Of a stretch of DNA of 64,000 bases, positions 21,268 through 55,976 are shown piece by piece; the first letter of the stretch is position 1, and every line of letters starts with the position of its first letter. This stretch comes from a bacterium (lineage in GTDB: Bacteria > 4484-113 > JAFGCY01). Both the position numbers and the translations under genes were made by a program. Where the stretch lies: assembly GCA_020440645.1 (NCBI GenBank), contig JAGRNR010000007.1:7366-71365 (forward strand), in the 5' to 3' direction. The notes under the pieces were generated by a model. The model saw only the letters and a list, made by a program, of their open reading frames with translations, was not told the DNA's origin and made no database searches.

Positions 21268-21334
21268 CCTTTGGCTTACAAGTGTTAATTGCTGTGGCTT
21301 CCCGTAATCCATACCAGAATAGGAGGTTAGCGTC

Positions 21335-22399: not shown

Positions 22400-22461
22400 C
22401 CTGCCTTGATTTCGGGTTAGATGTCAAGTCAATTGGTTTCGGATCATCTATGGAGGATGCT

Positions 22462-26591: not shown

Positions 26592-26601
26592 GCGGTAGCA
26601 T

Positions 26602-27840: not shown

Positions 27841-27870
27841 GGTAGCCGGCGGTCCGGTACAGGTTGGAGA

Positions 27871-29100: not shown

Positions 29101-29190
29101 TCACCACAAACGAATACTTTTGCCTGCCAGTCTGCGTCCTAAGCCCCAGCCGCCGGGAAGCGGCGGGAAACCAACTCAGGACTTCAGGCC

Positions 29191-34697: not shown

Positions 34698-36323
34698 ATG
34701 AGGGTATTTCTGGCAACGCTGCTGGCAGCAGCGGTTCTTTGTGCAGGCAGCGCCTGGGCGGGCGATGCCTACGATGATGTCTCCACGGAGCACTGGGCAT
34801 ACAACGCGCTCGACTACCTGACCAGCCGCGGCGTGATTGAGGGTTATCCCGATGGCTTCTTCAAGGGAGACCGCACGCTGACCCGTTACGAGTTCGCGCA
34901 GGCCATCGCCCGCCTGCTGGATACGGTCGGGGAGGGCAGCCCGGAGAACATCCAGGTGATGGCTGAGTCCCTGCGCACCGAGTTCAGCGACCAGTTGGCA
35001 TTGATCAATGCGCGTACCGATGAACTTGGCAACAGCATCAATACGATGCAGGCCCAGGTCTCGGACCTCGAGGGTGCCGTTGCTGACAACACCAACCGCA
35101 TCGGCTCGCTGGAGGACAAGATCGCCGGACTGAAGCCCGGCCCCGCCTGGCGCGGTGAGTTCCGCTACCGCTGGCAGGCAGACGACCGTGCAGACAGCCA
35201 GCGCTTCCGCCAGCGCATCATGTTCAAGCTGGGCTACAACCAGAAGATCAATGAATGCGTCGAAGTCGGCTTCCGCCTGTCAACCAACAACGGCACGAAC
35301 ATCTTCACGCTGCCCTATGACCTCGGCAGCAAGGATGGCAAGTCCCCGGACATCTACCTTGACCGTGCCTACGTGAAGTACAGCCCCGGCTGGTTCGGCT
35401 ACTACAACGAGCAGACCACAACCTGCAAGGACAAGTGCGGCTGCTGCGAGGAGTGCACCACGACCAACGCCTGCAAGGCCAAGCTGGACATCTACGCCGG
35501 TATCTTCCCGCACCTGTCATACATCCCGACCGAGGGTTACATGACTGACAACTTCTACCTCGAGGGACTCGGACTGGCATACCACTTCAACGACGATTTC
35601 CAGATCACAAGCGTAGCCAGCGTGCTGGTTGAGCAGAATGGCGAGCAGTTCTTCGGGGATGACACCTACTACTTTGCCACGGAGCTGAAGCACGACGACT
35701 TCCTCGTCGAGGGCCTGAATGCCTGGGTCGGCATGTACTCCTATGACAACGTCGGCCAGCTGCCGGAGTACTGGTTCTGGGGCAATGGCCTGCTGGAGAA
35801 CGGCGGCCTATGGGACTTCAACGGCGATGGCGTGCGCACCAGCGATGACCGATTCTCCAGCAAGTACTGCATGGGCAAGGTCGGCCTGGAATACACATGG
35901 GAGTGTGTCTGGGACCGTCCGCTGAACATCTTTGGTGAATACCTGTGGGCGATTGACAGCGACGCCGCTGACAACATCGCACTTGTCAACCAGCAACTGG
36001 CCAGCCCGATCATCACTGAGCCGAGCGACGACTACGGCCTGCTGATCGGCGCGATGTGGGGCACCTGGCGCAAGGAGTGCGGCGACTGGAGCCTGTACGG
36101 CCACTACCGCCAGATGGGTGCCAACCTGATGCGCGAAGGTGCACAGTTCCCGCTGCTCAACCGCAACACGCTCAACGTGCGCTGGGACTACATGTGGGCC
36201 CCGAACTGCCTCGTCGGCGTGAACTACATCATGGACAAGATGCACAATGCCTTCGGATACGGTGTGCCGGACTTCAAGGCCGACCATGACTACTACGTTG
36301 TGGAGTGGAGCTTCCTGTTCTGA
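34698..36323 (+). CDS. OmpM-like outer-membrane porin (SLH domain, coiled coil, beta-barrel), paralogue 1
   Basis: ORF from 34347. ATG 34698 is preferred (AAGAGGA SD; signal peptide MRVFLATLLAAAVLCAGSAWA). SLH motif DHWAYNALDYLTSRGVIEGYPDGFFKGDRTLTRYEFAQAIARLL. Heptad region ...QVSDLEGAVADNTNRIGSLEDKIAGL. Barrel part ends ...YYVVEWSFLF (terminal Phe). Confidence 0.8.
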   Translation: MRVFLATLLAAAVLCAGSAWAGDAYDDVSTEHWAYNALDYLTSRGVIEGYPDGFFKGDRTLTRYEFAQAIARLLDTVGEGSPENIQVMAESLRTEFSDQLALINARTDELGNSINTMQAQVSDLEGAVADNTNRIGSLEDKIAGLKPGPAWRGEFRYRWQADDRADSQRFRQRIMFKLGYNQKINECVEVGFRLSTNNGTNIFTLPYDLGSKDGKSPDIYLDRAYVKYSPGWFGYYNEQTTTCKDKCGCCEECTTTNACKAKLDIYAGIFPHLSYIPTEGYMTDNFYLEGLGLAYHFNDDFQITSVASVLVEQNGEQFFGDDTYYFATELKHDDFLVEGLNAWVGMYSYDNVGQLPEYWFWGNGLLENGGLWDFNGDGVRTSDDRFSSKYCMGKVGLEYTWECVWDRPLNIFGEYLWAIDSDAADNIALVNQQLASPIITEPSDDYGLLIGAMWGTWRKECGDWSLYGHYRQMGANLMREGAQFPLLNRNTLNVRWDYMWAPNCLVGVNYIMDKMHNAFGYGVPDFKADHDYYVVEWSFLF

Positions 36324-36353
36324 TCAGGCAGCACAACTTGTTTGAACGAAATG

Positions 36354-36384
36354 AGCCCGGTCACAATGGCCGGGCTTTTTCTTT
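36354..36384 (+). terminator. Rho-independent terminator after SLH porin 1
   Basis: AGCCCGG-loop-CCGGGCT hairpin followed by TTTTTCTTT. Confidence 0.75.
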
Positions 36385-36487
36385 CCATTGTCATTTCATT
36401 CCGAACTATCCACCACCATATGCGTCCGGAATGCTGATACAGGGTTTCGGTCGCAATTGCTGCTGCGCCCCGGAAGGAGAATGGATT

Positions 36488-37273
36488 ATGAAGACCTCGA
36501 TTCAACTCAGCGGTGTGGCAATTGCCGCAGCCATGCTGATTGCCAGTGCAGGCAATGCAGTGTCAGCTGAGACAACGTATGCAAGTGATTATCCCGGCCT
36601 GAAGACTCGTGGTGGGGCGATAGACATTGCTGAATCCCAGGTTCGGGCCGCGCTCGAGGGTTTCCAGCTGGCATTCGGCCGCAATCCTGCATCCTGGTCA
36701 GAGGTGACGAAGAAGGGCATTTTTGACAATGTACTGCTGGGTTACGGAATGGAGAGAATCAATCCGGATGATGCCAGCATAGACTTCACAGGTGACATCT
36801 ACATAGAAAGCACCGCGGCGGAAGGAGATATCACTGACCTGCGCCTGTACAACTCCTGGAACGGATCAACCGAAGACGTTGACGGTCCGCTTGTCACGAA
36901 CAAGGGCAGCTATGCTGACCGGTTCGCGGAAATGATGAAGGAGCAGGACCTGAATGCTGGCCAGCAGGAGATAATCCGTGAATGGCTGGGAAACGAAGCT
37001 CAACTGGTCCAGTTCGCACAGATCCGCCAGCTTGGCTATGCAGCGATTGCATTCCAGGATGTCAATGGACACTATCCGGATAGCATCCAGCAACTCGTGG
37101 AATCGGGTTTCGGACCCCTGTCCAGTACGACCATCAATCCCATGACCGGCAAGGCATACTCATTTGATGGCAGCAGGGGTGAAATCAAATACAGCCTGAT
37201 GGATGGCGGCAAGGGATTCAGGATCACCCATGTGGACCTGACCCATGATGTGGACTTCGAGTTCAGCTACTGA
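36488..37273 (+). CDS. Secreted hypothetical protein
   Basis: ORF from 36305. ATG 36488 is preferred (GGAAGGAGA SD; signal peptide MKTSIQLSGVAIAAAMLIASAGNAVSA). No recognisable motif. Confidence 0.6.
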   Translation: MKTSIQLSGVAIAAAMLIASAGNAVSAETTYASDYPGLKTRGGAIDIAESQVRAALEGFQLAFGRNPASWSEVTKKGIFDNVLLGYGMERINPDDASIDFTGDIYIESTAAEGDITDLRLYNSWNGSTEDVDGPLVTNKGSYADRFAEMMKEQDLNAGQQEIIREWLGNEAQLVQFAQIRQLGYAAIAFQDVNGHYPDSIQQLVESGFGPLSSTTINPMTGKAYSFDGSRGEIKYSLMDGGKGFRITHVDLTHDVDFEFSY

Positions 37274-45242: not shown

Positions 45243-46543
45243 TGCTGTCCCTCGCTGTCAGACATCAACTCACTGAGTCGTTGGATTCCGTATCCACTGC
45301 CTGGAAAGTTCACATCAGGCAGCAGGTCTTCGAATTCATGCCGCAGTGCCTCAGCCATGATCAGAATATCCGTCGGGGAGTTGTCATCCAGGCTGCCGCA
45401 TAGACATCTGACGGCTACCGCGAGATCGTGTCTGTTGATTTCGCCTGCTATTCGGAAGATGCCTCGTGGGTACTCTGCCAGGTAGCCTCGCATCTGTAGG
45501 TACTCAAGACTGTTGAAGGCCCAGTGGTCAGGTACCACTGCCGAACTGGGGTCAGCCTTGCGACTTGCGGCCCAGCCCTCAAGCTCTGAGAAATCCAGTC
45601 TGACCTGGTGAGGCATGCCATTCTGCGCGTTTATCTCTTTATTGAACTCTTGATGGAGCAGCAGCATGCCAAGTGAATAGGGCTCATCAATCTGGAGGAC
45701 ATTGTCACTAATAATCCTCATTACGGCTTGAGCAAGTTCGTATCTGGTGAGTGAACCACTGGCAAAGAATTTGTGCGGATATCCTTCCAGCAAGCCGCGT
45801 TCGGCATAAGAGTTCAGCATGCTGTATGCCCAGTGATCCTGCGGAACATCGTCATATGCTGAAGTTGGCACTTCGGTCGCTTCCGTCACTTCGACCATAT
45901 CCGGCTGCATACATTCAACGATCTCGAATGGGCAATCAGCAATCCAGTCTACATCTGCCAACTCGTGATGCAGGGTAGTTGCCATGATTACCTCATCCAC
46001 TGCAGGTTGCTCTGGTAAATCGAGGAATAACTGGTTGACCACTACGGCTGCATTCCGTCTGCTCAATGACTTCCAATTAGTGAAGTAGTTGGCAGGGAAG
46101 TTCTGCAGGTAGCCTTCAGTCTGCAGGTAATCGAATGCATTCAATACCCAGTGATCCGAGCTGAGCCAACCCGTCTCCGGTGCAGACTCTGCTGGGACTG
46201 GATCTCCTGAGGGATCCTCAGAAAGGTTTACTATTCCACTAAAGCAAATCAGGTCACTGAATTCTGCCCTCAGGGTTTCAACCATGATTGGCACATTCTC
46301 TTCCTCTGTGTCTGCAGTTGCCATCTGAAGTTGCAGGATGGCGAACTGGAATTCGTCACGCTTCAGGACCTGTGATCCATCAAACACCTTGGCAGGATAG
46401 TTCTGCAGGTATCCGTGGTGTTGCAGGTAGTCCAGGGCATTATAGGCCCAGTGCTCTGTGGAAACTTCGTTATAGGCACTGCCCGCCAATGCAGGGGTGC
46501 AAAGCAGCAGGATCGCAGCAAGCGTTGTCAGCCTAAGCCGCAT
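45239..46543 (-). CDS. Secreted protein made of four SLH-like modules, no barrel
   Basis: ORF to 46606. ATG 46543 is preferred (GGAGAAAG SD; signal MRLRLTTLAAILLLCTPALAGSAY). Four copies of (D/E)HW(A/V)(Y/F/L)N...Y(L)Q...GY(L)...(Y/F)P, each followed by an L(R/H)xEFxD segment. Confidence 0.75.
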   Translation of the reverse strand: MRLRLTTLAAILLLCTPALAGSAYNEVSTEHWAYNALDYLQHHGYLQNYPAKVFDGSQVLKRDEFQFAILQLQMATADTEEENVPIMVETLRAEFSDLICFSGIVNLSEDPSGDPVPAESAPETGWLSSDHWVLNAFDYLQTEGYLQNFPANYFTNWKSLSRRNAAVVVNQLFLDLPEQPAVDEVIMATTLHHELADVDWIADCPFEIVECMQPDMVEVTEATEVPTSAYDDVPQDHWAYSMLNSYAERGLLEGYPHKFFASGSLTRYELAQAVMRIISDNVLQIDEPYSLGMLLLHQEFNKEINAQNGMPHQVRLDFSELEGWAASRKADPSSAVVPDHWAFNSLEYLQMRGYLAEYPRGIFRIAGEINRHDLAVAVRCLCGSLDDNSPTDILIMAEALRHEFEDLLPDVNFPGSGYGIQRLSELMSDSEGQQ

Positions 46544-46662
46544 GTCTTTCTCCAGTTTCCCTCGCACGGGGGTTCCGGGCACCCATGCGGGATTGCTCTT
46601 CCTCAATCAGCTAATCGCTGAGTGGGAAGGGGGAGTTAAACGCATGCTGCTGTCTGCGACTG

Positions 46663-47811
46663 CTAGCCCTGGGTGCCGATGTTGTGCGGGTTCTCCGGCA
46701 CTTCGTCACCCTGGTGGTGCGGGTTGGGCATGCCGTGCGGGGTGTTGAATCCGCCACCGCTCATGTCCATCCCGCTGTGCGGGTCCGTCGGGTCGAAGTC
46801 ACCCGGGTCCGGCTCGCGGTTCTCCAGCATGGCGAGCTGCTGCTCACTCTCCCAGGCCTCACGCGGGCTGCCGTGCTGCTTGGCAGCGGCCAGTGCCGTG
46901 ATCGCTTCATCGTTCCTGCCGGCGGCCTTGAGGGCCATGCCGTAACTGTGCCAGCCCAGCCAGTAGTCCGGGTTCTCCGTCGTCGCGCGCTCGAGCTTGG
47001 CCAGCACCTGGCTGAAGTCAGCACCCTCGGCCGGCATCTGAGCCATCATTGCGCTGGCCTGGTTGACAAGTACATCCCAGTACAGCTCAGGGTGGCTCTC
47101 CGGCGTGGCGTTGTCAAGGAAGCGCTGGTACCAGGTCTCGGCCTTCTTCGCCTCACGGCCGGCAATCTCGCTGCCCGGTGCTTCCACGCGGCTGAGCTGC
47201 AGGTGCAGGTCGCCGACGGTTGCCATCACGGAGAAGTTCTCCGGCTCGGCCTGGCTGAATGCCTCAAACGAGGCCGCCGCTCCCAGCAGGTCGCCGTTCT
47301 GCATTGACAGCGCCGCCACGTCGGCGATCAGCTTGGCTTCGCGGCTGTCCGCGGGCTGCTTCATCCAGGCTGTGACGGCCGCCTGCGTATAGGGCGTGAC
47401 CTTGTCAGCTTCACTGATGCTGCTGTAGATCGTGTACAGCTCGTTCAGTGCCGCAGTGTCCAGTGGATCCTTGTCCAGCCGCGCCTTGTACTGCTCAACC
47501 ATCGAATTTACATCACCGCCCGCATTGCCATCCGCGCCGGGCAGGCTGTGCGGGTTGCCGCCGAGTGCCTGGTTCATGGCATCAGCACCCTGCTGGGGCT
47601 GGCGCTGCAGCATCACCATGCCACCGACAAGCGCCAGCACGATCACGATCGGCATCACGATGCGCAGCGGGTTGGCAGCCGGGGCGGACTGGCCACCCGG
47701 GCCGGCATTCATCACGGCACCGCACTGCTCGCAGAAGCGCGCAGCGGGCTGGTTGGCGGCCCGGCACACCGGGCAGCGGGACTGCTTTTCAGTTGAACTC
47801 TGCTTGGACAT
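46663..47811 (-). CDS. Zinc-ribbon / single TM / periplasmic TPR protein with His/Met-rich tail
   Basis: CPVCRAANQPAARFCEQCG zinc ribbon. TM IVMPIVIVLALVGGMVML. TPR-like helices. C-terminal DPHSGMDMSGGGFNTPHGMPNPHHQGDEVPENPHN. Confidence 0.75.
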   Translation of the reverse strand: MSKQSSTEKQSRCPVCRAANQPAARFCEQCGAVMNAGPGGQSAPAANPLRIVMPIVIVLALVGGMVMLQRQPQQGADAMNQALGGNPHSLPGADGNAGGDVNSMVEQYKARLDKDPLDTAALNELYTIYSSISEADKVTPYTQAAVTAWMKQPADSREAKLIADVAALSMQNGDLLGAAASFEAFSQAEPENFSVMATVGDLHLQLSRVEAPGSEIAGREAKKAETWYQRFLDNATPESHPELYWDVLVNQASAMMAQMPAEGADFSQVLAKLERATTENPDYWLGWHSYGMALKAAGRNDEAITALAAAKQHGSPREAWESEQQLAMLENREPDPGDFDPTDPHSGMDMSGGGFNTPHGMPNPHHQGDEVPENPHNIGTQG

Positions 47812-47842: not shown

Positions 47843-47876
47843 AAATGAAACGGGCGCCCCATGGAGGGACGCCCGT
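47843..47876 (-). terminator. Terminator-like hairpin after the tetraheme cytochrome gene
   Basis: On the minus strand, a 7-bp GC stem (ACGGGCG...CGCCCGT) is followed by TTCATTT. Confidence 0.55.
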
Positions 47877-47911: not shown

Positions 47912-48421
47912 TTACTTCTTCGGCTTGGGCTTGTGGTCCGCCAGTGCCTTGACGGCATCGGCGTACTTGAACTCCTTGTAGTGCGGGGAGTCCTTGTTGT
48001 GGCAGGTCTTGCAGTTCGCCTCCGTGGGCTTGGTCATCGTGTTGCGCTTCTTCTCAACATCGTTGAGCGGGGCGGCAAGGTGGTCCTTGGCGGGGCCATG
48101 GCAGGCCTCGCACTGCACGTTGACGAGCTTGGGGGTCTTCTCGATGCTGACGAAGCCGCCGGGCTTGCCAAAGCCGGTCACATGGCAGGGGATGCAGCTG
48201 TCCTTCTTGTCCTTGCTGGCCTGCAGTGTGTCCCAGGTCTTGGCCATCGGCCACTTCTTCCATGCTGCGACCTGGTCCTTGTGGCACATGCCGCACTTCT
48301 TCTCGTTGTCACCGACATACTCGTTGGCATCGGCACCGCTTGCCTGCTCTGCGCTGAAGGCGCCCCAGGCGAACATCGCCACGATGAACACAGCGATTAC
48401 CCAGCCATACTTCCTGAACAT
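47912..48421 (-). CDS. Tetraheme c-type cytochrome with N-terminal hydrophobic segment (signal peptide or anchor)
   Basis: ORF to 48445. ATG 48421 is preferred (AAGGAGG SD 6 nt upstream). Four CxxCH: CGMCH, CIPCH, CEACH, CKTCH. Lys-rich tail HKPKPKK. Confidence 0.9.
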   Translation of the reverse strand: MFRKYGWVIAVFIVAMFAWGAFSAEQASGADANEYVGDNEKKCGMCHKDQVAAWKKWPMAKTWDTLQASKDKKDSCIPCHVTGFGKPGGFVSIEKTPKLVNVQCEACHGPAKDHLAAPLNDVEKKRNTMTKPTEANCKTCHNKDSPHYKEFKYADAVKALADHKPKPKK

Positions 48422-48526
48422 GCTACACCTCCTTGGTGCTTGCAACTCTCCTGGAATCCTTGGATTCCAGCCTCTTAGGCTCCATGAGATATTCGATATG
48501 TCTGCCTTACTTGATAATACCCCAGA

Positions 48527-50233
48527 TCAGAAGCTAATCCTGTAATTTACCGCAACTGAGACTGCATCTGATTCAAGGCCCGGGTAGTTGTCATACAGCC
48601 TGCGGTACCAGTCCAGGCGCAGGCCAAGCGGCCCAAGGCGCTTGAAGCGGACCTCAGCCCCGGCACTGGTCTGGGTATAGTTCTCTGCCCCGCTGCCGTC
48701 GCTCATGGCGAAGTTCAGCGAGTAGTCATGGTCCTCAAGCTGCTGCCCGTAGGTGGCGGCGTAGGTCTTGTCGTCGGTGCTGTACTCGTCGTCAACGCCC
48801 GGCATGTCGAGCTCGGAGCGGCTGTCACGCAGGGACAGGGCGAACTGGCTGCAGCTGTCGATGCGGTGCATCCAGACTCCCTCGGCATAGGTCAGGTTGG
48901 TCTGGCTGTCACGGCCACCATTGCGGGATTCCTGGCCGTACATGTTGAAGTCAACGGAGTTGTGATTGTCCACCGTCCAGGACAGGCCGTGGGTGCGGGA
49001 CAGCTGCTTGTCGAAGAACAGGCTGGTGCTGCCGACACTGACGAGCTCAGTGCCCGGGGTACTGCCCGACTCGTAGTCGATGTGCGTACGGAACTTCAGG
49101 CGGTCAGAGAGGTTCTGCTTCATGTCGAACCAGACCGTGTCGTACTCCGGTGCGAGGATCGTCACCGCGGGAGCGACCTGGGCCGGTGTCACCACGGAGG
49201 AGCCACGCAGCAGGTTGAACACCGAGCTGTCCTGCATGTCCAGCTTGGCGTAGTCAACCTGGCGCAGCTTGTAGCCGGCCTCGTAGCTGTTGCCACAGCC
49301 GGGGTACCATGCCGCCGAGAAGCCATACTCGCTGGAGCTCTGCACGTGGCTGCTGACGATGTTGTCATCGGCGGCCTCGCTGCTGCTGTACTCCGCATTG
49401 AAGGACCAGTCGCAGCTCGGGTCGTAGCGCATGCCCAGTGTCAGGTCCGCGCTGGAGAACTCCGGGTCGGGCTGGTCATCGTACTGGTACTGCTTGTAGT
49501 TGATCCGGCCGTAGGCCTTCAGCTCATCGCTCAGCCTGGCGTCCAGCTTGACGCGGGTATGGTCAATGCTGCCGGAGGCGCCGGGCAGGGTGGTGTCGAT
49601 CGTGGTGGCACGCTGGGTGACCTGGGCCATCGTGTCGATGCCGATGATGTCCAGGTTCCAGCGGTAGCCGAGGCGCTCCACCTTGAGGTCATGCAGCGGG
49701 CTGGCCGTGTCATGGTTGAGCTCGATGCGCTCGTAGTTGAGCGCCATGTTGTCAAGCTCACGGTGGTGGATCCGCAAGCCGTACTGGTCATGTGACCAGT
49801 CGTAGGGCACCAGTGCCGGCTCCGCACCGAATGCGTTCCAGGCGCGGCCGCTGATCAGGGTGCTGTCACCCTGCAGCACGAGCGGCCAGCTCGTCAGGCG
49901 GCCCCAGCCGCGTCCGCTGTCGCTGCTGACATCCTGCCAGCGGGCCTCGAAGCGGTTGAGCACGCAGCCCATGTCGACGCTGTTGTAGCGGCCGTTGGTG
50001 TACCAGTCCTCCGGGTAGAGCCCGTACTGGTTGAAGGAGTCCTCGTTGTCATTCACTTCCGTGCTGGTGCCGCCGATCTCGACGAAGTTGCCAAGACCGT
50101 CCTCGGCCCAGAACTCACAGCAGTCAGCGCAGCCGGCGTTGCAGCCGGTGCAGGCATCGCCCGCAAGGGCCACGCCGCTGAGCATGACAAGCATGGAGAA
50201 GACGAGGAGGGCAGTTAACATTCCGTTGCGCAT
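48527..50233 (-). CDS. Outer-membrane beta-barrel protein with N-terminal Cys cluster (candidate MtrB/PioB-like sheath)
   Basis: AGGAGG SD. Signal peptide MRNGMLTALLVFSMLVMLSGVALA, then GDACTGCNAGCADCCEFW. Alternating-residue strand patterns run throughout. C-terminus SVAVNYRISF. Starts 13 nt after the 12-heme gene. Confidence 0.7.
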   Translation of the reverse strand: MRNGMLTALLVFSMLVMLSGVALAGDACTGCNAGCADCCEFWAEDGLGNFVEIGGTSTEVNDNEDSFNQYGLYPEDWYTNGRYNSVDMGCVLNRFEARWQDVSSDSGRGWGRLTSWPLVLQGDSTLISGRAWNAFGAEPALVPYDWSHDQYGLRIHHRELDNMALNYERIELNHDTASPLHDLKVERLGYRWNLDIIGIDTMAQVTQRATTIDTTLPGASGSIDHTRVKLDARLSDELKAYGRINYKQYQYDDQPDPEFSSADLTLGMRYDPSCDWSFNAEYSSSEAADDNIVSSHVQSSSEYGFSAAWYPGCGNSYEAGYKLRQVDYAKLDMQDSSVFNLLRGSSVVTPAQVAPAVTILAPEYDTVWFDMKQNLSDRLKFRTHIDYESGSTPGTELVSVGSTSLFFDKQLSRTHGLSWTVDNHNSVDFNMYGQESRNGGRDSQTNLTYAEGVWMHRIDSCSQFALSLRDSRSELDMPGVDDEYSTDDKTYAATYGQQLEDHDYSLNFAMSDGSGAENYTQTSAGAEVRFKRLGPLGLRLDWYRRLYDNYPGLESDAVSVAVNYRISF

Positions 50234-50246
50234 CGCTTGCTACCTC

Positions 50247-51455
50247 CTAGTTCCCGAAGAAGAAGAAATCAGTGTTGGAACCGTGGTGGTCGGAATGGCA
50301 TCCCGAGGTCCAGCAGTTCTGTGCGGGGAAGTGGTTGGCACGGTCAGTATGGCATTCCATGCAGGTACCCCGTCCGGAGAAGTTCAGCAGGTCAGGGTTG
50401 CTGCTGCCGTGTGCACTGTGGCAGGTGAAGCAGCCGTTGCCCATTGCCGGATCGTATCCCGCGTGCTCGAAGATGAACGGGCCCTGCTTGTCAGCGTGGC
50501 ATTCGAAGCAGAGGTCGTCCTTCACCTGCTTGAGCATCTCGTGCCCCTCGCCGCCGTGCGGGTTGTGGCAATCAATGCACATCAGGCCCATTCTCGGGTC
50601 CTCGTTGTCAAGCGGATGGTGGCTGAACTTGGCGAAGTCCAGGCGGGTCGACTCGTGGCAGGTCAGGCACATTGAATTGGGGGTCTTGCGCAGGTTGTGC
50701 TTGTTGGTCTGCATGTGCGGGTCATGGCACTCGATGCAGGACATCCCTTCCTTCACATGGCGGGTGCCCTTGTAGTCCGGCACATAGGTGTCGGACTTGT
50801 GGCACTCAAGGCATGTGTCGTCAATTTCCTTGGAGCTGGCCATGCTGAACACACCGATTCCGGCGCGGCGGCCCCAGTGGTTGCTGCCCGGTCCATGGCA
50901 GCTTTCGCAGCCACGCTCGCTGATCGGGCGGGTACCGTGGTCGGTCAGGCTGTGCATGGACTTCTGCCATTCACGGCGATGGCCCTGGTGGCAGCTCAGG
51001 CAGGTCTCAGTACCGACGTACTGCGCGCCTTCCGTGGAGGCGGCAAAGCCGGGGTAGTCCTCCTGGCGGCTGGGGTTGAGGAAGGGATCGAGGTTGCTGC
51101 CGTGCATGTCGCTGTGGCAATTGCTCGTCCAGCAGGTAAGTGCAGGGTAGTGCTCGGACTTGTCCTGGTGGCAATTGAGGCAGAGTGAGCGGGTTTCACT
51201 TACGAGCCCGCCATGGCCCCCGACGCCAGTGGTCTGGTGGCACGTGTCGCACTTGCCCTCGAAGGCCGGCGCATGCGGGAAGCTGACTTCCTGAGCCGCG
51301 CTTCCATGACACATTGCACAGTCAACACTGCTGACATCCTCCGGAGCTTCCATTCCCTCAAGGGAATCAAAGAACTGCGCCTGTCCAACGTAAGTCCAGC
51401 CCAGCACTCCGACAGCTATCAGCACGATGGTCATCAATGACCTTCTCGCAGCCAT
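50247..51455 (-). CDS. Multiheme c-type cytochrome, 12 CxxCH + 2 CxxxxCH
   Basis: GGAGGA SD and an N-terminal hydrophobic segment. CxxCH motifs: CAMCH, CDTCH, CLNCH, CLSCH, CESCH, CLECH, CIECH, CLTCH, CIDCH, CFECH, CFTCH, CMECH. Also CWTSNCH (51114-51134) and CWTSGCH (50295-50315). Confidence 0.92.
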   Translation of the reverse strand: MAARRSLMTIVLIAVGVLGWTYVGQAQFFDSLEGMEAPEDVSSVDCAMCHGSAAQEVSFPHAPAFEGKCDTCHQTTGVGGHGGLVSETRSLCLNCHQDKSEHYPALTCWTSNCHSDMHGSNLDPFLNPSRQEDYPGFAASTEGAQYVGTETCLSCHQGHRREWQKSMHSLTDHGTRPISERGCESCHGPGSNHWGRRAGIGVFSMASSKEIDDTCLECHKSDTYVPDYKGTRHVKEGMSCIECHDPHMQTNKHNLRKTPNSMCLTCHESTRLDFAKFSHHPLDNEDPRMGLMCIDCHNPHGGEGHEMLKQVKDDLCFECHADKQGPFIFEHAGYDPAMGNGCFTCHSAHGSSNPDLLNFSGRGTCMECHTDRANHFPAQNCWTSGCHSDHHGSNTDFFFFGN

Positions 51456-51491
51456 GCTGATCCTCCAATATTCTCTCTTCCTCTACCCTGT

Positions 51492-51508
51492 GGAAAACAC
51501 TGTTTTCC
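51492..51508 (-). promoter_or_regulatory. Perfect 7-3-7 palindrome (candidate operator) upstream of the 12-heme cytochrome gene
   Basis: GGAAAAC-ACT-GTTTTCC lies 37-53 nt upstream of ATG 51455, just downstream of an AT-rich TATA-like stretch (51531-51545). Confidence 0.45.
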
Positions 51509-51611
51509 GGCACCAAGTTTAGCACAATCCTACTATATATCTATGATATCGGGCATCGGAATTGTGTCTTTAGTCAGACTTCATCAAGCCAGTTGGAAAG
51601 GGGATCCAGGC

Positions 51612-51641
51612 AAAAAAAAGGGCGCCCATTGCGGGCGCCCT
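51612..51641 (-). terminator. Strong rho-independent terminator after the 9-heme lipoprotein gene
   Basis: On the minus strand, the AGGGCGCCC-GCAAT-GGGCGCCCT hairpin is followed by T8. Confidence 0.85.
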
Positions 51642-51660
51642 CCTTGTTGGTGTACTGCTG

Positions 51661-53652
51661 TTACGGCAGAGCGTTGAGTTCGTTGACCTTGTTGATGGCG
51701 GACTGCAGCAGGCCGCGGGAGTACGCCGGGTTGTGGACACCCTTACTGTTGTCCTCGCGGACGTACTCATAGTTCCACCAGGCCTGGCGGTACTGGTCGC
51801 CGATCGGGTCATTGAGCGGCGGGCCGTCGGTGCTCGGCGGATCTGAGCTGGAGGGCTTGTTGTTCAGTTCGAACACACCGGCATCCTCAGTCTTCCACTC
51901 GGCGGGCCAGATTGTCTCAAACTCGAGCAGCATGGCCAGCGTACCGTTGATGAACTCCTCCTTGTAGGCTTCCATCTCCTCGCTGGTGGCGAAGGTGTGG
52001 CAGACGTTGCAGGATTCAATCTTCGGGGCGAAGCTGTGGCCGACGATGGCCGGGTTCTCGAAGTCCTCGAACTCCTTGGTGTACATGTGGCAGGTGATGC
52101 ACTTCTCCTCATTCCAGGAGTTGTGCGGGTGGGACTTGTCATACTCGTAGCCATCGAACTCCCAACCGCCGACACCGTAGATCATCGGAGCCTGGCTGTT
52201 GTGGTGGAATCCGCGGCCACCCTTGGCAACGGTGTTCTCCATGTCACCACGGTCACGACGGCCATTGTGGCAGGCAATGCAGGTGTTGGCCTTGCCGGCA
52301 TTCACTTCGGTGTCGTCGAAGGGGATGATCATCGTTGCGGTCGGGTCGACACGCAGCTGGTTCTCGAAACCGTTTCCGTGCGGGTCGTGGCAGGTGGCGC
52401 AGCTGACGTGCGTACCCATTTCAAGGTCCTCAGCCGGCGGGTCCTCGCCGTTGATCTGGATCCGGACGAACCATTCACCGTTGTGGCACTGCACGCAGCT
52501 GCCACCGGTGGCCTGGTGGGAATCCAGGGCAAAGGTGCCGTGGCCGGAGGTCTGCCACTCGTCGAACGTCGGGTGGTGCTCCTCAGTATGGCAACGGCCG
52601 CAGGAGTCGGTCGGGTCGAAGGATGCGGGCAGCGGACCGTTGGCCGGGTGGCCGGTACCGGAGCCGTGGCAGCTTTCGCACTGGACGTTGGCAAACTGCG
52701 GGGTCAGGTCGTAACTGATGTAACCGCCCTCGCCGTAACCGACGGTGTGGCACTCACGGCAGCTCTCGAGCCTGCCGCGGCCGATCTGCTGCATCATTTC
52801 CTCGATGTGGGCGTGACCGGTGGTCTCCCACTGGTCGTACACGTCAGAGTGGCAGTTGGAGCAACGCTCGGCACCACTGAAGTCGAAGGATGTCGGCATC
52901 GCGGCAAGGGTTACCGTGGCGGTCTGGGACGTGACTGCGCTCACCATTGACGTACCGGTCGCCTTGCCATCGTTGGCAATTGCGGTGATCGTATGGCTGC
53001 CGGCCTCGTCATATGACCATGTGGCCTTGGAAGTGCCGTTCTCGACGGTGATGTCGGAGAAGTTGTCCTGGCCGGTGTCATCCTGCCAGACGAAGCTGAG
53101 CGTGTCGCCATCGGAGTCGGATGCGGTCACCGAGAAGATGATCTTCTGTCCGGCGACCGGGGAGCTGACGTCCTTCTGGATGCCATTCTGGTCGAAGGCG
53201 GGGGGATCATTCGGTCCCGGGGGTTCCGGTGCCTGTGCCACCGTGGTGGAAGTGCTGGCAGTAGCTGACAGCAGTTCCGGGTCGTACGCGATCACTGAGA
53301 TCGTGTAGGTTCCGGCTTCCTCAGTGCTCCAGAAGACGGATGAGCCCGTGCCGTCGAAGGTACCGGCGGCGGCATTCCCGTCATCCCAGCTGAAGGTCAG
53401 TGCACTGCCTTCGGGATCACTGGCGGATACGGAGAACTGCACAACCTGCGATGTCTCAGGACTGAGGTTGTTGGCAGCGATCGTATTTCCGATGATCACC
53501 GGAGCCTTGTTCACGCCGCCTCCGTCATCAGGGTTTCCCCCGCCGCCGGAAAGCGAGCTGGCGCAGCTGCCAAGCGCGAGGAGGCTGGCAGCTGTGATTC
53601 CCAATGCCTGATGGAGAATTCCTCTCCCGGTTGAAACATTGCTAGTCATCAT
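51661..53652 (-). CDS. Nonaheme c-type cytochrome lipoprotein with two PKD/Ig-like domains
   Basis: ORF to 53700. ATG 53652 or 53649 is preferred (AAGGAGG SD). Lipobox-like LLALGSC. Repeats FSVSASDPEGSALTFSWDDG and FSVTASDSDGDTLSFVWQDD. Nine CxxCH: CSNCH, CRECH, CESCH, CGRCH, CVQCH, CATCH, CIACH, CITCH, CNVCH. Confidence 0.9.
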   Translation of the reverse strand: MMTSNVSTGRGILHQALGITAASLLALGSCASSLSGGGGNPDDGGGVNKAPVIIGNTIAANNLSPETSQVVQFSVSASDPEGSALTFSWDDGNAAAGTFDGTGSSVFWSTEEAGTYTISVIAYDPELLSATASTSTTVAQAPEPPGPNDPPAFDQNGIQKDVSSPVAGQKIIFSVTASDSDGDTLSFVWQDDTGQDNFSDITVENGTSKATWSYDEAGSHTITAIANDGKATGTSMVSAVTSQTATVTLAAMPTSFDFSGAERCSNCHSDVYDQWETTGHAHIEEMMQQIGRGRLESCRECHTVGYGEGGYISYDLTPQFANVQCESCHGSGTGHPANGPLPASFDPTDSCGRCHTEEHHPTFDEWQTSGHGTFALDSHQATGGSCVQCHNGEWFVRIQINGEDPPAEDLEMGTHVSCATCHDPHGNGFENQLRVDPTATMIIPFDDTEVNAGKANTCIACHNGRRDRGDMENTVAKGGRGFHHNSQAPMIYGVGGWEFDGYEYDKSHPHNSWNEEKCITCHMYTKEFEDFENPAIVGHSFAPKIESCNVCHTFATSEEMEAYKEEFINGTLAMLLEFETIWPAEWKTEDAGVFELNNKPSSSDPPSTDGPPLNDPIGDQYRQAWWNYEYVREDNSKGVHNPAYSRGLLQSAINKVNELNALP

Positions 53653-53704
53653 CGGCCTCCTTAGCCGAAAAGCCACCCAGGTCTCCAATGAGTGGGTCAT
53701 TTAT

Positions 53705-53937: not shown

Positions 53938-53966
53938 AAAAAGGGCGAGTCACTAGGACCCGCCCT
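53938..53966 (-). terminator. Terminator after SLH porin 2
   Basis: On the minus strand, the AGGGCG-12 nt loop-CGCCCT hairpin is followed by TTTTT. Confidence 0.6.
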
Positions 53967-54011
53967 CATCTAATGTCACGTTCTGTTGCGTGAAGGATTT
54001 GCTCCCTATGG

Positions 54012-55667
54012 CTAGAACTTGAACACCCAGTCCACCTGCACGATCTGGCGGTCGTCCAGGCTGCTGGGGATCTGGAATCCATACGCGTTGTGCATCTTCT
54101 GCAGGATGTAGGTGATGCCGAGGGTGCAGTTCGGGGCCCAGATGTATGCCCAGTGCCACTCGAAGCTGTTGCGGTTCGCACCACCGGTGTCTGAGTCGCC
54201 GAGGCCGTGGACGATCGCGTTGCCGCCGATCTCCTTGTAGCGGGCGAAGGTGAACCAGTCACCGCACTCCTTGGGCTTGTCGCCCCACTGCGCACCGGCA
54301 ACCCAGCCGCTGTCGTCGCTGGTCTCGTAGATGATCGGGGAGGCCAGGCCCTGGTTGACGATCGCGATGTTGTCCTCCGCGTCGCTGTCACAGGACATCA
54401 TGTACTCACCGTAGATCTTGAACGGCTTGTCGTCCCAGGCACAGTCCCAGGTGTACTGCAGGCCGGCCTTGTAGACACTGAAGTTGCTGTTGAAGCGGTC
54501 GAGGCCGTTGACGGCCCCGTCGCCATTGAAATCGAACACGCTGCCGTCAGCCAGCACGAGGCCGTTGCCGGTGAAGTACTCATCCAGCAGCTGGTTCTCG
54601 AGTTTCCAGCCGTAGCTGCCGATCCAGGCATCAAGGCCATCGAACAGGAAGTCGTCATGGCGCAGCTCGGTGGCGAAGAAGTAGGTGTCGTCATCGAAGT
54701 AGTCGCTGCCGTTCTTCTCGACGAAAACGCTGGCGACACTGGTCAGCTGGAAGTCCTGGTTGAAGTGGTAAACGAAACCGAGACCCTGCAGGTTCACGTC
54801 GCCATCCAGCACCATCTCATTCGGGTCGGTGAGGATGTTCGGGTAGATACCGGCATAGATGTCGATCTTGCTCTTGCACTCGCACTTCAGGTCCTCGCAC
54901 TTGGCACATTCGTTGCAGCCGCCGCAGCCACCGCAGTTCGGCTTCGGCTTCTCGCAATCCTGGTACCAGCCGAACCAGCCCGGGCTGTACTTGACATAGG
55001 CCTCGTGCAGGAAGATGTCCGCCGTACGGCCCTGGTTGCCAAGCGTGTGGTTGCCGGAGGTGGCATCGTTGCCTGTCTGGGTCTGGAACTGCCAGGCCAG
55101 CATCACGCAGTCGTTGATCTGCTTGCTGTAGCCCAGTTTGAAACGGATGCGCTGGCGGAACCGGTTGCGGTTCGCATAGTCCTGGAACTCCCAGCGGTAA
55201 CGCAGCTCACCCTTCCAGGCCGGGCCGGGCTTGAGGTCCTTGACCTTGCCCTCGAGGTCGCCGATCCGGTTGGTGTTGTCCGCCACACTACCTTCAAGAT
55301 CCGAGATGGTCGAGTTCATGTCGTTGACCTGGTTGCCCAGGGCATCAACCCGCCCGCCGAGGCTGGCAAGCTGGTCAGAGAATTCCGCGCGAAGGGTTTC
55401 GGCCATGATGTTGATGTCTTCGGGCGAACCCTCACCAACAGTGTCGAGCAGACGGGCGATCGCCTGGGCGAACTCGTAACGCGTCAGCGTACGGTCACCC
55501 TTGAAGAACCCGTCCGGATAACCTTCCAGCACACCGCGGTGCGTCAGGTAATCCAGGGCGTTGTAGGCCCAGTGGTCGGTGGACACGTCGTCATAGGCGG
55601 AACCCGCCCAGGCAACGGAGCATCCAAGGACCATGCAGGCCAGCAGGGAGAGTGCAAACCTCTTCAT
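54012..55667 (-). CDS. OmpM-like outer-membrane porin (SLH, coiled coil, beta-barrel), paralogue 2
   Basis: ORF to 55760. ATG 55667 is preferred (signal peptide MKRFALSLLACMVLGCSVAWA). DHWAYNALDYLTHRGVLEGYPDGFFKGDRTLTRYEFAQAIARLL. Ends ...VQVDWVFKF. Colinear with paralogue 1, including a Cys-rich insert. Confidence 0.8.
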   Translation of the reverse strand: MKRFALSLLACMVLGCSVAWAGSAYDDVSTDHWAYNALDYLTHRGVLEGYPDGFFKGDRTLTRYEFAQAIARLLDTVGEGSPEDINIMAETLRAEFSDQLASLGGRVDALGNQVNDMNSTISDLEGSVADNTNRIGDLEGKVKDLKPGPAWKGELRYRWEFQDYANRNRFRQRIRFKLGYSKQINDCVMLAWQFQTQTGNDATSGNHTLGNQGRTADIFLHEAYVKYSPGWFGWYQDCEKPKPNCGGCGGCNECAKCEDLKCECKSKIDIYAGIYPNILTDPNEMVLDGDVNLQGLGFVYHFNQDFQLTSVASVFVEKNGSDYFDDDTYFFATELRHDDFLFDGLDAWIGSYGWKLENQLLDEYFTGNGLVLADGSVFDFNGDGAVNGLDRFNSNFSVYKAGLQYTWDCAWDDKPFKIYGEYMMSCDSDAEDNIAIVNQGLASPIIYETSDDSGWVAGAQWGDKPKECGDWFTFARYKEIGGNAIVHGLGDSDTGGANRNSFEWHWAYIWAPNCTLGITYILQKMHNAYGFQIPSSLDDRQIVQVDWVFKF

Positions 55668-55976
55668 CCTACATACCTCACAGAAAGTATTTCCCATTGC
55701 AGGGATGGCAACACCTCCTGCGCCCGACCAGCTGCTTGAACTACGGACGTGCGCGTCCAAAGGTGCTCAGGAAAGGTTATTAGGCAAGGATGAAGATGGA
55801 GTGAGCATCACCTGTGCTTTGGGAAATTGACCAGGCTTCAATCTGATGCCAGGCTCGGCGTTGCCAGGATGCCTCAGGCCACTACTGGATTGGCAGGACT
55901 GGTTTCCACACCGAATCCTCAATCAGGAATGTATCCGCTTCCTGAAAGCGAGTTGCCCATCGCCGTGAAGGAATCC

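What the first reader, a model, noticed from the sequence alone, without database searches (positions are those of the whole stretch)
54876..54956. Hyper-cysteine insert (8 Cys in 27 aa) in the SLH porin adjacent to the cytochrome cluster
SLH porin 2 carries DCEKPKPNCGGCGGCNECAKCEDLKCEC between the conserved blocks AYVKYSPGWFGWY and KSKIDIYAGIYP. Repeated CxxC / CGGC spacing of this kind is typical of metal or Fe-S binding, or of disulfide-knot peptides, and is not expected in a barrel loop or turn of an OmpM-type porin. The barrel protein of the cytochrome module has a similar cluster at its N-terminus (5 Cys in 14 aa, 50117-50152). So three outer-membrane barrels in this window share the feature. 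This may point to redox-active or metal-binding elements in the outer membrane, or to a lineage-specific disulfide plug.
Basis: seen in the sequence. Interest (0 to 1): 0.7.

Follow-up and report, generated by a model that had tools for sequence, protein, structure and literature searches.

The report
Cysteine-rich periplasmic finger on tether porin
An outer-membrane porin that also ties the membrane to the cell wall carries a small finger made almost entirely of cysteine repeats on its inner, periplasmic face. It most likely braces the envelope through sulfur bonds and is probably not part of the neighbouring cytochrome electron pathway.

Summary
On the minus strand, 54876-54956 encodes CEKPKPNCGGCGGCNECAKCEDLKCEC, with 8 Cys in 27 aa, inside a 551-aa SLH + coiled-coil + 16-strand barrel protein. 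Its best structural match is Veillonella OmpM1.

The insert sits between barrel strands 4 and 5. Because the N-terminal stalk is periplasmic, strand parity places it on periplasmic turn T2, not on a surface loop.

Among 86 homologues, most have a short CxxC-capped turn at this site. Several sublineages expanded it to 4-15 Cys. All come from uncultured MAGs labelled UBP7_A or 'Planctomycetales'. A near-identical genome carries one extra 'CQS' unit, giving 9 Cys. The cores are 31% Cys with almost no hydrophobic residues, and CxxC spacing dominates.

The family's other periplasmic turns are also Cys-rich: 7% Cys, against 0.1% in extracellular loops. Cys counts are odd as often as even.

My best reading is a sulfur-braced periplasmic finger, held partly by intermolecular disulfides, analogous to the Cys-rich periplasmic region of chlamydial MOMP. 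A metallothionein-like metal-thiolate cluster is the main rival.

An Fe-S site or a functional link to the cytochromes is not supported. The porin has its own terminator-like hairpin, and the most Cys-rich paralogue lies far from any cytochrome gene. I class it as a new variant of a known kind.

The parts
54012..55667 (-). Porin 2: OmpM-type SLH tether-porin, 551 aa from the ATG at 55667. The mechanical ORF extends upstream to a TTG at 55760.
   Evidence: Pfam SLH E=1.9e-8 and Porin_5 E=2.8e-9. The family profile hits V. parvula OmpM1 chains at E=1e-30. AF2 pLDDT is 83 and the best Foldseek match is OmpM1 8bys at E=8e-17, TM 0.73. Homologue P0001 (551 aa, 92% identity) is the same length as the protein read from this ATG.
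55605..55667 (-). Sec-type signal peptide MKRFALSLLACMVLGCSVAWA, with no twin-arginine motif
   Evidence: Read directly from the sequence. The mature N-terminus GSAYDDV is conserved across the family.
55422..55604 (-). SLH domain (residues 22-82); periplasmic cell-wall-binding module
   Evidence: Pfam SLH. Alignment to the OmpM1 SLH region.
55239..55421 (-). Long helix (residues 83-143): coiled-coil stalk
   Evidence: AF2/DSSP helix 83-143. The OmpM1 stalk is a periplasmic triple coiled coil (PMC10628300).
54015..55214 (-). 16-strand beta-barrel (residues 152-551) ending in VFKF
   Evidence: The DSSP strand list of the AF2 model. OmpM1 is the best structural match.
54876..54956 (-). Cys-rich tip of periplasmic turn T2 (C238-C264): CEKPKPNCGGCGGCNECAKCEDLKCEC, 8 Cys. 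The stem strands are 234-238 and 262-266.
   Evidence: pLDDT is below 50 for residues 244-258. The site lies between strands 4 and 5, so by parity from the periplasmic stalk it is a periplasmic turn.
54915..54951 (-). Two in-frame micro-tandem repeats inside the insert: a 9-bp unit x2.4 (CGG CGG C) and a 6-bp unit x2.5 (KPKP)
   Evidence: Tandem Repeats Finder. The L001 orthologue differs by a 3-codon 'CQS' indel.
53941..53967 (-). Terminator-like hairpin (11-bp stem plus T-rich tail), 45 nt after the porin 2 stop
   Evidence: Consensus scan only. It separates porin 2 from the cytochrome genes that start at 53700.
34698..36323 (+). Porin 1: paralogue, 55% identical, same architecture
   Evidence: BLASTP. 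It clusters with P0029 and L009/L011/L015.
35424..35474 (+). Homologous T2 Cys cluster of porin 1: CKDKCGCCEECTTTNAC (6 Cys)
50117..50152 (-). N-terminal Cys cluster (CTGCNAGCADCC) of the 568-aa barrel of the cytochrome module (gene 48527-50233). C28, C31 and C38 are invariant in the 9 homologous sequences aligned (7 database proteins and 2 locus translations).
   Evidence: Alignment A3. This cluster is analogous to the T2 insert, not homologous to it.
47912..53700 (-). Porin-cytochrome-type module. It comprises a 679-aa PKD + 9-CxxCH protein, a 402-aa 12-CxxCH protein, the 568-aa barrel and a 177-aa 4-CxxCH protein. It is a neighbour of the Cys-finger feature, not a demonstrated part of it.
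   Evidence: Pfam, heme-motif counts, synteny in L001-L003, and a terminator-like hairpin at 47850-47876.

Best explanation
The insert is the tip of a beta-hairpin that protrudes into the periplasm from turn T2, between barrel strands 4 and 5, of an OmpM-type porin that also tethers the outer membrane to the cell wall.

The ancestral form of this turn is a short hairpin capped by one CxxC. In this lineage it has grown by adding Cxx or CxxC units in frame. The result is a (CxxC)n array of about 30% Cys with no hydrophobic core, so it can only be held together by sulfur chemistry.

The family's other periplasmic turns (T1, T4-T7) also carry Cys. Together with the T2 finger they form a thiol-studded periplasmic rim next to the stalk base.

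Most likely these thiols form disulfides. Some would be local. Others would be intermolecular, linking protomers, trimers or other Cys-bearing envelope proteins. That would covalently brace the tether lattice and perhaps make it redox-responsive, as proposed for the Cys-rich periplasmic region of chlamydial MOMP.

Shown here: sequence, conservation, expansion pattern, composition, predicted fold and topology.
Inferred: periplasmic orientation (by parity and homology), proximity to the stalk, and the disulfide chemistry itself.
For: Architecture and topology:
- The protein has SLH, a stalk helix and 16 strands. OmpM1 is the best match by both sequence profile and fold.
- OmpM1 has a periplasmic N-terminal stalk and 16 strands (PMC10628300).
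- The connections after even-numbered strands are short (2-9 aa). Those after odd-numbered strands are mostly long: 11-42 aa for L2-L8, though L1 is only 2 aa.
- OmpM1 N155 makes an inter-protomer contact with the stalk base. It aligns to T1, the turn next to T2.

Family pattern:
- 70-76 of 86 homologues keep the CxxC pair at T2. Expansions to 4-15 Cys occur in about five places on an NJ tree.
- A 3-codon CQS indel separates the window from its closest orthologue, and DNA micro-repeats lie inside the insert.
- Cys codons show synonymous changes only among orthologues.

Composition:
- The cores are 31% Cys, 0.4% aromatic and 3% aliphatic. 58% of Cys-Cys gaps are 2 residues.

Periplasmic bias:
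- Cys density is 22.7% in T2, 7.0% in the other periplasmic turns and 0.1% in extracellular loops.
- The T1 Cys occurs only in the clade with the expanded T2.

Parity:
- 45 homologues have an odd and 41 an even mature Cys count, so some thiols must be free or bonded intermolecularly.

Precedent:
- In MOMP, 5 of 8 Cys are periplasmic and are expected to form intermolecular disulfides (PMC13254160).
Against: - No coordinates were available, so Cys-Cys distances and the position relative to the trimer axis could not be measured.
- The insert tip has pLDDT below 50.
- It was not established whether this organism has a periplasmic disulfide-forming system (DsbA/DsbB or VKOR). If its periplasm is reducing, disulfides are unlikely.
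- Odd and variable Cys numbers, CxxC/CxC/CC motifs and a G/S/K/N/D-rich, aromatic-free composition fit a metal-thiolate cluster equally well.
- No partner Cys-rich periplasmic protein was identified near any paralogue.
- The homologues are related, so the Cys-density statistics overstate independence.
Confidence: 0.45

Rival explanations
1. Metallothionein-like metal-thiolate cluster. The (CxxC)n finger wraps soft metal ions (Zn, Cu(I), Cd or Fe(II)) in the periplasm. This would serve either as a structural metal clamp at the stalk base or, given how abundant OmpM-type proteins are, as a periplasmic metal buffer.
For: - Composition is 31% Cys with G/D/E/S/T/K/N linkers, 0.4% aromatic residues, and CxxC, CxC and CC motifs.
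- Cys number is variable and often odd: 13 expanded cores are odd and 10 are even.
- A Cxx unit gain changes 8 Cys to 9 between near-identical orthologues.
- The P0004 insert (about 58 aa, 15 Cys) is the size of a whole metallothionein.
- Low pLDDT is what an apo, metal-dependent fold would give.
- Growth by micro-duplication is typical of low-complexity metal-binding peptides.
Against: - There is no homology to any Pfam family, including the metallothionein families.
- Cys-based metal sites are uncommon in oxidising periplasms, where Met/His sites are usual (general knowledge).
- Many expanded cores are strongly acidic, with net charge -4 to -8, which is unlike classical metallothioneins.
- Most family members have only one CxxC at this site, too few ligands for a cluster.
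Confidence: 0.3
2. Tolerated low-complexity expansion. Replication slippage in a GC-rich TGC/GGC tract inflates a structurally permissive periplasmic turn. Only the ancestral CxxC matters, and the rest is nearly neutral.
For: - Micro-tandem repeats lie within the insert.
- A 3-codon indel separates close orthologues.
- Length and sequence vary greatly between lineages, and some members have lost the Cys altogether (P0063, P0073, P0079).
Against: - All independent expansions are Cys-based with preserved CxxC spacing.
- All 8 Cys are kept at 82% overall identity while the linker residues change. Cys codons show only synonymous differences.
- Unpaired Cys in an exported, abundant protein are normally selected against (general knowledge).
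- The T1 Cys co-occurs with the expanded T2.
Confidence: 0.12
3. Redox-gated periplasmic plug. The finger folds into or across the periplasmic mouth of the pore, and thiol/disulfide exchange opens or closes the channel.
For: The finger is long enough (about 40 aa including its stem) to reach the barrel mouth. Its conformation is not confidently predicted.
Against: - In OmpM1 the constriction is made by extracellular loops 3 and 7 (PMC10628300).
- The basal family form is far too short to plug the pore.
- Nothing in the data positions the finger in the lumen.
Confidence: 0.08
4. Fe-S cluster or thiol relay that feeds or receives electrons from the adjacent porin-cytochrome module.
For: - Adjacency of porin 2 to the multiheme cluster is conserved in three genomes, L001-L003.
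- The CxxCxxCxxC spacing superficially resembles ferredoxin motifs.
- The cytochrome-module barrel also has an N-terminal Cys cluster.
Against: - The protein has a Sec signal peptide and is inserted as a barrel from an unfolded state, which is incompatible with cytoplasmic Fe-S loading (established biogenesis knowledge).
- There is no CxxCxxCxxxCP motif and no Fer4 hit.
- A terminator-like hairpin lies between the porin and the cytochrome genes.
- Paralogues with 6 and 12 Cys are not near cytochromes.
- 2-Cys family members occur in contexts where the motif scan found no cytochrome genes (L008, L010, L012).
Confidence: 0.03

Closest known systems
OmpM1 of Veillonella parvula (PDB 8bys/8bym; PMC10628300) and OmpM/SlpA-type SLH tether-porins
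   Same: Both have a signal peptide, one SLH domain, a coiled-coil stalk and a 16-strand porin barrel. OmpM1 is the best match by both sequence profile and fold. The 'DRAYV' strand-4 motif aligns between them.
   Different: The OmpM1 segment that aligns at the strand-4 end (HK---FGSN) contains no Cys and is shorter than the family's SPxWFGYY. The OmpM1 paper does not mention cysteine or disulfide at all. Here T2 is a protruding hairpin capped by CxxC and expanded to 8 Cys, and other periplasmic turns also carry Cys. Barrel sequence similarity is very low (12-13%).
Chlamydial MOMP and the disulfide-cross-linked outer membrane complex (PMC13254160)
   Same: Both are trimeric OM barrels whose Cys are concentrated on the periplasmic side, including a close-spaced N-terminal cluster (C26-x2-C29-x3-C33). 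Those Cys are proposed to make intermolecular disulfides that stiffen the envelope. That paper notes that most OM barrels lack Cys.
   Different: There is no homology. MOMP is a 10-strand barrel without SLH or a stalk. It has 8 Cys in total, not a (CxxC)n array. Partner proteins OmcA and OmcB are known there, and none has been identified here. Cross-linking is not demonstrated here.
MtrB N-terminal CXXC of Shewanella (Wee et al., as described in PMC12175506)
   Same: This applies to the 568-aa barrel. That barrel belongs to a porin-cytochrome module and has a conserved CxxC just after its signal peptide. In MtrB, C42 is required for Fe(III) reduction and is proposed to form a heterologous disulfide.
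   Different: No sequence homology to MtrB was shown; Pfam gives only sub-threshold generic barrel hits. This barrel has 3 invariant and up to 5-6 Cys, against 2 in MtrB. The comparison is unrelated to the T2 insert of the SLH porins.
Metallothioneins
   Same: Both have about 30% Cys, CxxC/CxC/CC motifs, virtually no aromatic or hydrophobic residues and variable length. Both appear to evolve by internal duplication.
   Different: There is no detectable homology. This element is embedded in an OM barrel turn and exported to the periplasm, and many variants are highly acidic. Metal binding is untested.
Pfam PF16930 Porin_5 ('putative porin')
   Same: The barrel scores above the family's gathering threshold: 36.5 versus 22 bits. 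Precomputed Pfam annotation gives PF16930 for nearly all close homologues.
   Different: Only profile positions 156-219 of 535 match. Distant Porin_5 relatives mostly have 0-2 Cys (the 147 fetched), and the three SLH-bearing relatives whose sequences were read have no Cys at this turn.

Membership tests
OmpM-type SLH tether-porin | N-terminal signal peptide followed by a single SLH domain | tested here: met
   Pfam SLH E=1.9e-8, above the cut-off. The family profile matches OmpM1 residues 4-118 at E=1e-30.
OmpM-type SLH tether-porin | Coiled-coil stalk between the SLH domain and the barrel | tested here: met
   AF2 predicts a continuous helix at 83-143. The profile also gives weak hits to trimeric coiled coils.
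OmpM-type SLH tether-porin | C-terminal 16-strand porin barrel | tested here: met
   DSSP gives 16 strands when 218-227 and 234-238 are counted as one bulged strand. The top Foldseek hits are OmpM1 chains at E about 1e-16, TM 0.73-0.75.
OmpM-type SLH tether-porin | Trimer with a triple coiled coil; binds peptidoglycan or a secondary cell-wall polymer | not testable with these tools
   No multimer prediction or biochemistry was available.
Pfam Porin_5 (PF16930) | Score above the curated gathering threshold | tested here: met
   36.5 bits against a cut-off of 22, but the match is partial.
Metallothionein | Sequence homology to a metallothionein family | tested here: not met
   Six T2 insert sequences (the window's two porins and four homologues) and the cytochrome-module barrel's N-terminal cluster gave no Pfam hit at E<=10, apart from one irrelevant DUF hit at E=4.8.
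Metallothionein | About 30% Cys, CxC/CxxC motifs and lack of aromatic residues | tested here: met
   31% Cys, 0.4% aromatic, and 58% of Cys-Cys gaps are 2 residues.
Metallothionein | Binds metal ions in thiolate clusters | not testable with these tools
   Needs ICP-MS or native MS.
Ferredoxin-type 4Fe-4S site | CxxCxxCxxxCP motif, a Fer4-type domain and cytoplasmic or Tat-dependent cofactor loading | tested here: not met
   The spacing is CxxCxxCxxCxxC with no following CP. There is no Pfam hit. The signal peptide is Sec-type and lacks a twin-arginine motif.
Porin-cytochrome (Mtr/Pcc-type) barrel with N-terminal CXXC (the 568-aa protein) | Barrel gene flanked by periplasmic and extracellular multiheme cytochrome genes | tested here: met
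   12-CxxCH, 9-CxxCH + PKD and 4-CxxCH neighbours. Synteny holds in L001-L003.
Porin-cytochrome (Mtr/Pcc-type) barrel with N-terminal CXXC (the 568-aa protein) | Conserved N-terminal CxxC | tested here: met
   C28, C31 and C38 are invariant in all 9 homologous sequences aligned, down to 49% identity.
Porin-cytochrome (Mtr/Pcc-type) barrel with N-terminal CXXC (the 568-aa protein) | Homology or fold similarity to MtrB or another characterised Pcc barrel | tested here: inconclusive
   Pfam gives only sub-threshold OMP_b-brl and BBP2_2 hits. The AF2 model failed, with pLDDT 27 from a 7-sequence alignment.
Chlamydia-type disulfide-cross-linked OM complex | Cys concentrated on the periplasmic face of the OM barrel | tested here: met
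   By predicted topology, 471 Cys lie in periplasmic turns and 14 in extracellular loops across 86 sequences.
Chlamydia-type disulfide-cross-linked OM complex | Intermolecular disulfides and Cys-rich periplasmic partner proteins | not tested
   No partner was found next to the paralogues. Biochemistry is needed.

The most novel reading that the evidence does not exclude
A free-living, uncultured lineage (UBP7_A, labelled 'Planctomycetales') has turned its OmpM-type tether porins into nodes of a thiol-based envelope network. The Cys-studded periplasmic rim and the tunable (CxxC)n finger at the stalk base would form reversible intermolecular disulfide or metal-thiolate bridges. This would be a non-chlamydial counterpart of the chlamydial cross-linked outer membrane complex, and the Cys count could be adjusted rapidly by 3-codon slippage.
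Probability: 0.25. Interest if true: 0.7.

Novelty: new variant of a known kind. Interest (0 to 1): 0.5.

Why it matters
Outer-membrane beta-barrels are classically almost free of cysteine. The known exception is the chlamydial envelope, where periplasmic Cys build a redox-switchable protein shell.

Here a whole clade of OmpM-type tether porins carries Cys almost exclusively on the predicted periplasmic rim. One turn has repeatedly expanded into a (CxxC)n array.

If these thiols cross-link or bind metal, that would add a covalent or metal-mediated layer to OM-cell wall tethering in a poorly known phylum. It would also give a simple, testable model for how envelope mechanics or periplasmic metal and redox buffering evolve by micro-duplication.

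The finding also warns against reading gene adjacency to an electron-transfer module as functional coupling.

Tried and rejected
- **AF2 on the 568-aa cytochrome-module barrel.** The 7-sequence alignment A4 gave pLDDT 27, which is unusable.
- **Pfam scan of isolated inserts.** There were no hits, so a claim of homology to metallothionein or ferredoxin was rejected.
- **Literature.** A search for 'S-layer homology + porin + cysteine-rich + outer membrane' returned nothing. A bare 'UBP7' search returned only yeast ubiquitin-protease papers. GTDB 'UBP7' (Ca. Bimafiota: 0.8-1.4 Mb genomes, saline and marine waters) does not fit a 4.1-Mb genome. I therefore treat the 'UBP7_A' isolate label only as a label.
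- **Cytochrome coupling.** Rejected on the terminator-like hairpin and on the contexts of the paralogues.
- **Neighbour inspection.** I inspected the ORFs flanking porin 1 in the window and a list of ORFs of at least 180 aa around the 12-Cys paralogue (L006). No Cys-rich partner stood out by Cys count. No domain search that would detect an oxidoreductase was run on them.
- **All-intramolecular disulfide knot.** Rejected as the sole explanation because of Cys parity (45 odd, 41 even; 8 versus 9 Cys in near-identical orthologues).
- **Representatives search with the barrel alone.** At 50% clustering the close family collapses to about 7 clusters. Distant Porin_5 relatives match only strands 1-3 or the C-terminus and are Cys-poor.
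Full report
**1. Observation**

The finding's coordinates are exact, but the gene is on the minus strand. Window 54870-54962(-) translates to QDCEKPKPNCGGCGGCNECAKCEDLKCECKS. The plus-strand frame there is meaningless.

The mechanical ORF is 54012-55760. The likely start is the ATG at 55667, preceded by GAGG, which gives 551 aa. That is the same length as homologue P0001.

Cys frequency in 34 other ORFs of the window is 1.09%. Eight Cys in 27 residues therefore has a per-position probability of about 4e-10.

- Porin 1 (34698-36323, plus strand) is 55% identical. It has CKDKCGCCEECTTTNAC at the homologous site.
- The 568-aa barrel of the cytochrome module starts, after its signal peptide, with GDACTGCNAGCADCC.

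**2. What the protein is**

Pfam finds one SLH domain and a partial Porin_5 match, both above threshold. A profile of 86 family members hits Veillonella parvula OmpM1 chains at E=1e-30 over the SLH/stalk region. It also weakly aligns the barrel, including the 'DRAYV' strand.

The AF2 model has mean pLDDT 83 and pTM 0.70. It shows a signal peptide, the SLH domain, a 60-residue helix (83-143) and 16 strands. Its best PDB matches are the OmpM1 chains, with E about 1e-16 and TM 0.73-0.75.

OmpM1 is a trimeric 16-strand porin. Its N-terminal SLH and triple coiled-coil stalk reach into the periplasm and bind the cell wall (PMC10628300). Porin 2 therefore meets every sequence and fold criterion I could test for an OmpM-type tether porin.

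**3. Where the insert sits**

The insert lies between strand 4 (218-238, bulged at SPGWFG) and strand 5 (262-275). The stalk enters strand 1 from the periplasm, so connections after even-numbered strands are periplasmic turns.

The connection lengths agree with this.
- Even connections are short (T1 4, T3 4, T4 7, T5 8, T6 9, T7 2 residues).
- Odd connections L2-L8 are long (11-42 residues). L1 is only 2 residues.
- C-terminus: the protein ends in ...VFKF.

Residues 234-238 and 262-266 pair as a stem that continues the hairpin beyond the barrel rim. The tip (244-258) has pLDDT below 50.

OmpM1 N155 makes an inter-protomer hydrogen bond with the stalk base. It aligns to T1 of this family. By homology, the neighbouring T2 finger should therefore lie near the stalk-barrel junction. 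This step is inferred. No coordinates or trimer model were available.

**4. Family context**

The homologue search returned about 87 close relatives (E of 1e-100 or better), mostly full-length. They come from metagenomes and MAGs. The genome hits are MAGs named UBP7, UBP7_A, 'Planctomycetales bacterium' or 'bacterium', and include the complete 4.1-Mb genome CP060262.1. Each good genome has three paralogues.

Between the invariant WFGYY and PKLDIYAG blocks, most members have a 22-residue segment such as TDKDCNPCTP with one CxxC. That pair is present in 70-76 of 86 sequences. Sublineages carry 4, 5, 6, 7, 8, 9, 12 or 15 Cys.

I built an NJ tree with the T2 columns removed. The expanded forms fall in about five places on it, and a few lineages have lost the Cys.

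More distant SLH-Porin_5 and Porin_5 relatives are Cys-poor and have no Cys at this turn. Close homologues keep every Cys. The wider family shows that the insert is an elaboration of an older CxxC turn.

**5. How it evolves**

The insert contains two in-frame micro-repeats: a 9-bp unit x2.4 that encodes CGGCGGC, and a 6-bp unit x2.5 that encodes KPKP.

The closest genome (L001) has neighbouring genes 99% identical to the window. Its insert reads ...CNECQSCAKCEELKCEC, with 9 Cys, where the window has ...CNECAKCEDLKCEC, with 8 Cys. That is a one-unit (Cxx) indel.

Among orthologues, Cys codons differ only synonymously, while linker residues change.

In the 23 expanded cores:
- 31% of residues are Cys, 13% are Gly and 18% are Asp or Glu.
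- Aromatic residues make up 0.4% and aliphatic residues 3%.
- 58% of gaps between consecutive Cys are exactly two residues.

Such a peptide has no hydrophobic core. It can only be ordered by disulfides or by metal-thiolate bonds.

**6. A wider pattern**

Using the predicted topology, I mapped every Cys of the 86 homologues.
- 471 lie in periplasmic turns, of which 207 are outside T2.
- 97 lie in strands.
- 14 lie in extracellular loops.
- 21 lie in the SLH domain, stalk or linker.

Per residue, the Cys density is 22.7% in T2 and 7.0% in the other periplasmic turns. It is 0.6% in strands and 0.1% in extracellular loops. The sequences are related, so the formal p-value is inflated, but the effect is very large.

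Conserved positions outside T2 include T5 (73 of 86), strand 9 near T4 (52), T4 (39), T6 (32) and T7 (22). A T1 Cys occurs only in the clade with the expanded T2.

Mature-protein Cys counts are odd in 45 sequences and even in 41. The Cys therefore cannot all be engaged in intramolecular disulfides.

**7. Relation to the cytochromes**

The genes at 47912-53700(-) form a porin-cytochrome-type module.
- A 679-aa PKD protein with 9 CxxCH.
- A 402-aa protein with 12 CxxCH.
- The 568-aa barrel.
- A 177-aa protein with 4 CxxCH.

The porin 2 + module arrangement is conserved in three genomes. However, a terminator-like hairpin (53941-53967, 11-bp stem) follows the porin stop, and another follows the module. 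These are consensus matches only.

Porin 1 and the 12-Cys paralogue have no cytochrome genes within 8 kb. I conclude that the adjacency is not evidence of shared function.

The barrel's own N-terminal cluster (C28, C31 and C38, invariant down to 49% identity) has a separate precedent. In Shewanella MtrB, an N-terminal CxxC includes C42, which is needed for Fe(III) reduction and is proposed to form a heterologous disulfide (PMC12175506). I could not establish homology to MtrB, and the AF2 model failed.

**8. Mechanism**

An Fe-S site is very unlikely for three reasons.
- The signal peptide is Sec-type.
- OM barrels cross the periplasm unfolded.
- There is no ferredoxin motif or domain hit.

Two chemistries remain.

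I favour disulfide bracing, partly intermolecular, with confidence 0.45.
- The Cys line the periplasmic rim of a protein whose job is mechanical tethering.
- Cys parity demands free or intermolecular partners.
- There is a direct precedent in chlamydial MOMP. Five of its eight Cys are periplasmic and are expected to form intermolecular disulfides within the cross-linked outer membrane complex. The authors of that paper note that most barrels lack Cys (PMC13254160).

The main rival, with confidence 0.30, is a metallothionein-like metal-thiolate cluster. It fits the composition, the odd and variable Cys numbers, and the low model confidence. It lacks any homology support.

Neutral slippage (0.12), a redox-gated plug (0.08) and an electron relay (0.03) are less likely.

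**9. Novelty and verdict**

The protein belongs to a known kind, the OmpM-type tether porins. The Cys-studded periplasmic rim and the expandable (CxxC)n T2 finger are not described in the OmpM literature I could search.

I class it as a new variant of a known kind, of moderate interest (0.5). The anatomy is solid and the chemistry is open. The cytochrome and redox-cofactor reading that motivated the original score is not supported.

Noticed in passing
L001:8094-9758 (CP060262.1) versus window 54876-54956: The closest orthologue carries one extra 'CQS' unit in the insert, giving 9 Cys instead of 8. This is a 3-codon Cxx indel between otherwise near-identical genomes, so the Cys count and its parity are evolving now.
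   Followed up: yes
Family alignment A2 (86 sequences); window residues C187, C409, C468, C514 of porin 2: Cys are concentrated in the predicted periplasmic turns T1 and T4-T7 across the whole family: 7.0% per residue, against 0.1% in extracellular loops. The T5 Cys is kept in 73 of 86 sequences with no obvious conserved partner.
   Followed up: partly
window 48527-50233 (-), residues 28-39: The barrel of the porin-cytochrome module has an N-terminal C-x2-C-x6-C that is invariant in all homologues, with up to 5-6 Cys in close ones. It is reminiscent of the functionally required N-terminal CxxC of Shewanella MtrB. Structure prediction failed because the alignment was shallow.
   Followed up: partly
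P0150 (metagenomic protein, 456 aa): This distant Porin_5 relative has no SLH domain but carries an N-terminal GCDCDGKGCYDCD cluster ahead of the barrel. Periplasm-facing Cys clusters on OM barrels may therefore recur outside this clade.
   Followed up: no
window 43812-45242 (-) and 45239-46606 (-): Two tandem, overlapping genes encode proteins with three to four SLH-like repeats (the HWAY motif recurs) and no barrel. They lie just downstream of the cytochrome module and a TPR/zinc-ribbon protein (46663-47811). They may be further cell-wall-anchored envelope components.
   Followed up: no
window 7696-10740 (-): A 1014-aa GH101 endo-alpha-N-acetylgalactosaminidase with its full domain set (Pfam E=4e-118). 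Such enzymes release mucin-type O-glycans.
   Followed up: no
window 25143-30417 (+): An HlyD-type adaptor is followed by three consecutive MacB/FtsX-type permease paralogues.
   Followed up: no
window 18691-23484 (+): Several paralogous proteins of about 350 aa carry N-terminal prepilin-type methylation motifs (N_methyl) and have no other recognisable domain.
   Followed up: no
window 30542-33652 (+): A 1036-aa Ser/Thr protein kinase fused to TPR repeats lies about 1 kb upstream of porin 1. The 322-aa ORF 36305-37273 overlaps the porin 1 stop and has no Pfam match.
   Followed up: no
L001-L016 record titles: Taxonomic labels are inconsistent. The isolates are named UBP7 or UBP7_A, but NCBI calls them 'Planctomycetales bacterium' or 'bacterium'. 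GTDB's UBP7 (Ca. Bimafiota) is described as having 0.8-1.4 Mb genomes from saline and marine waters, which does not fit a 4.1-Mb genome.
   Followed up: partly
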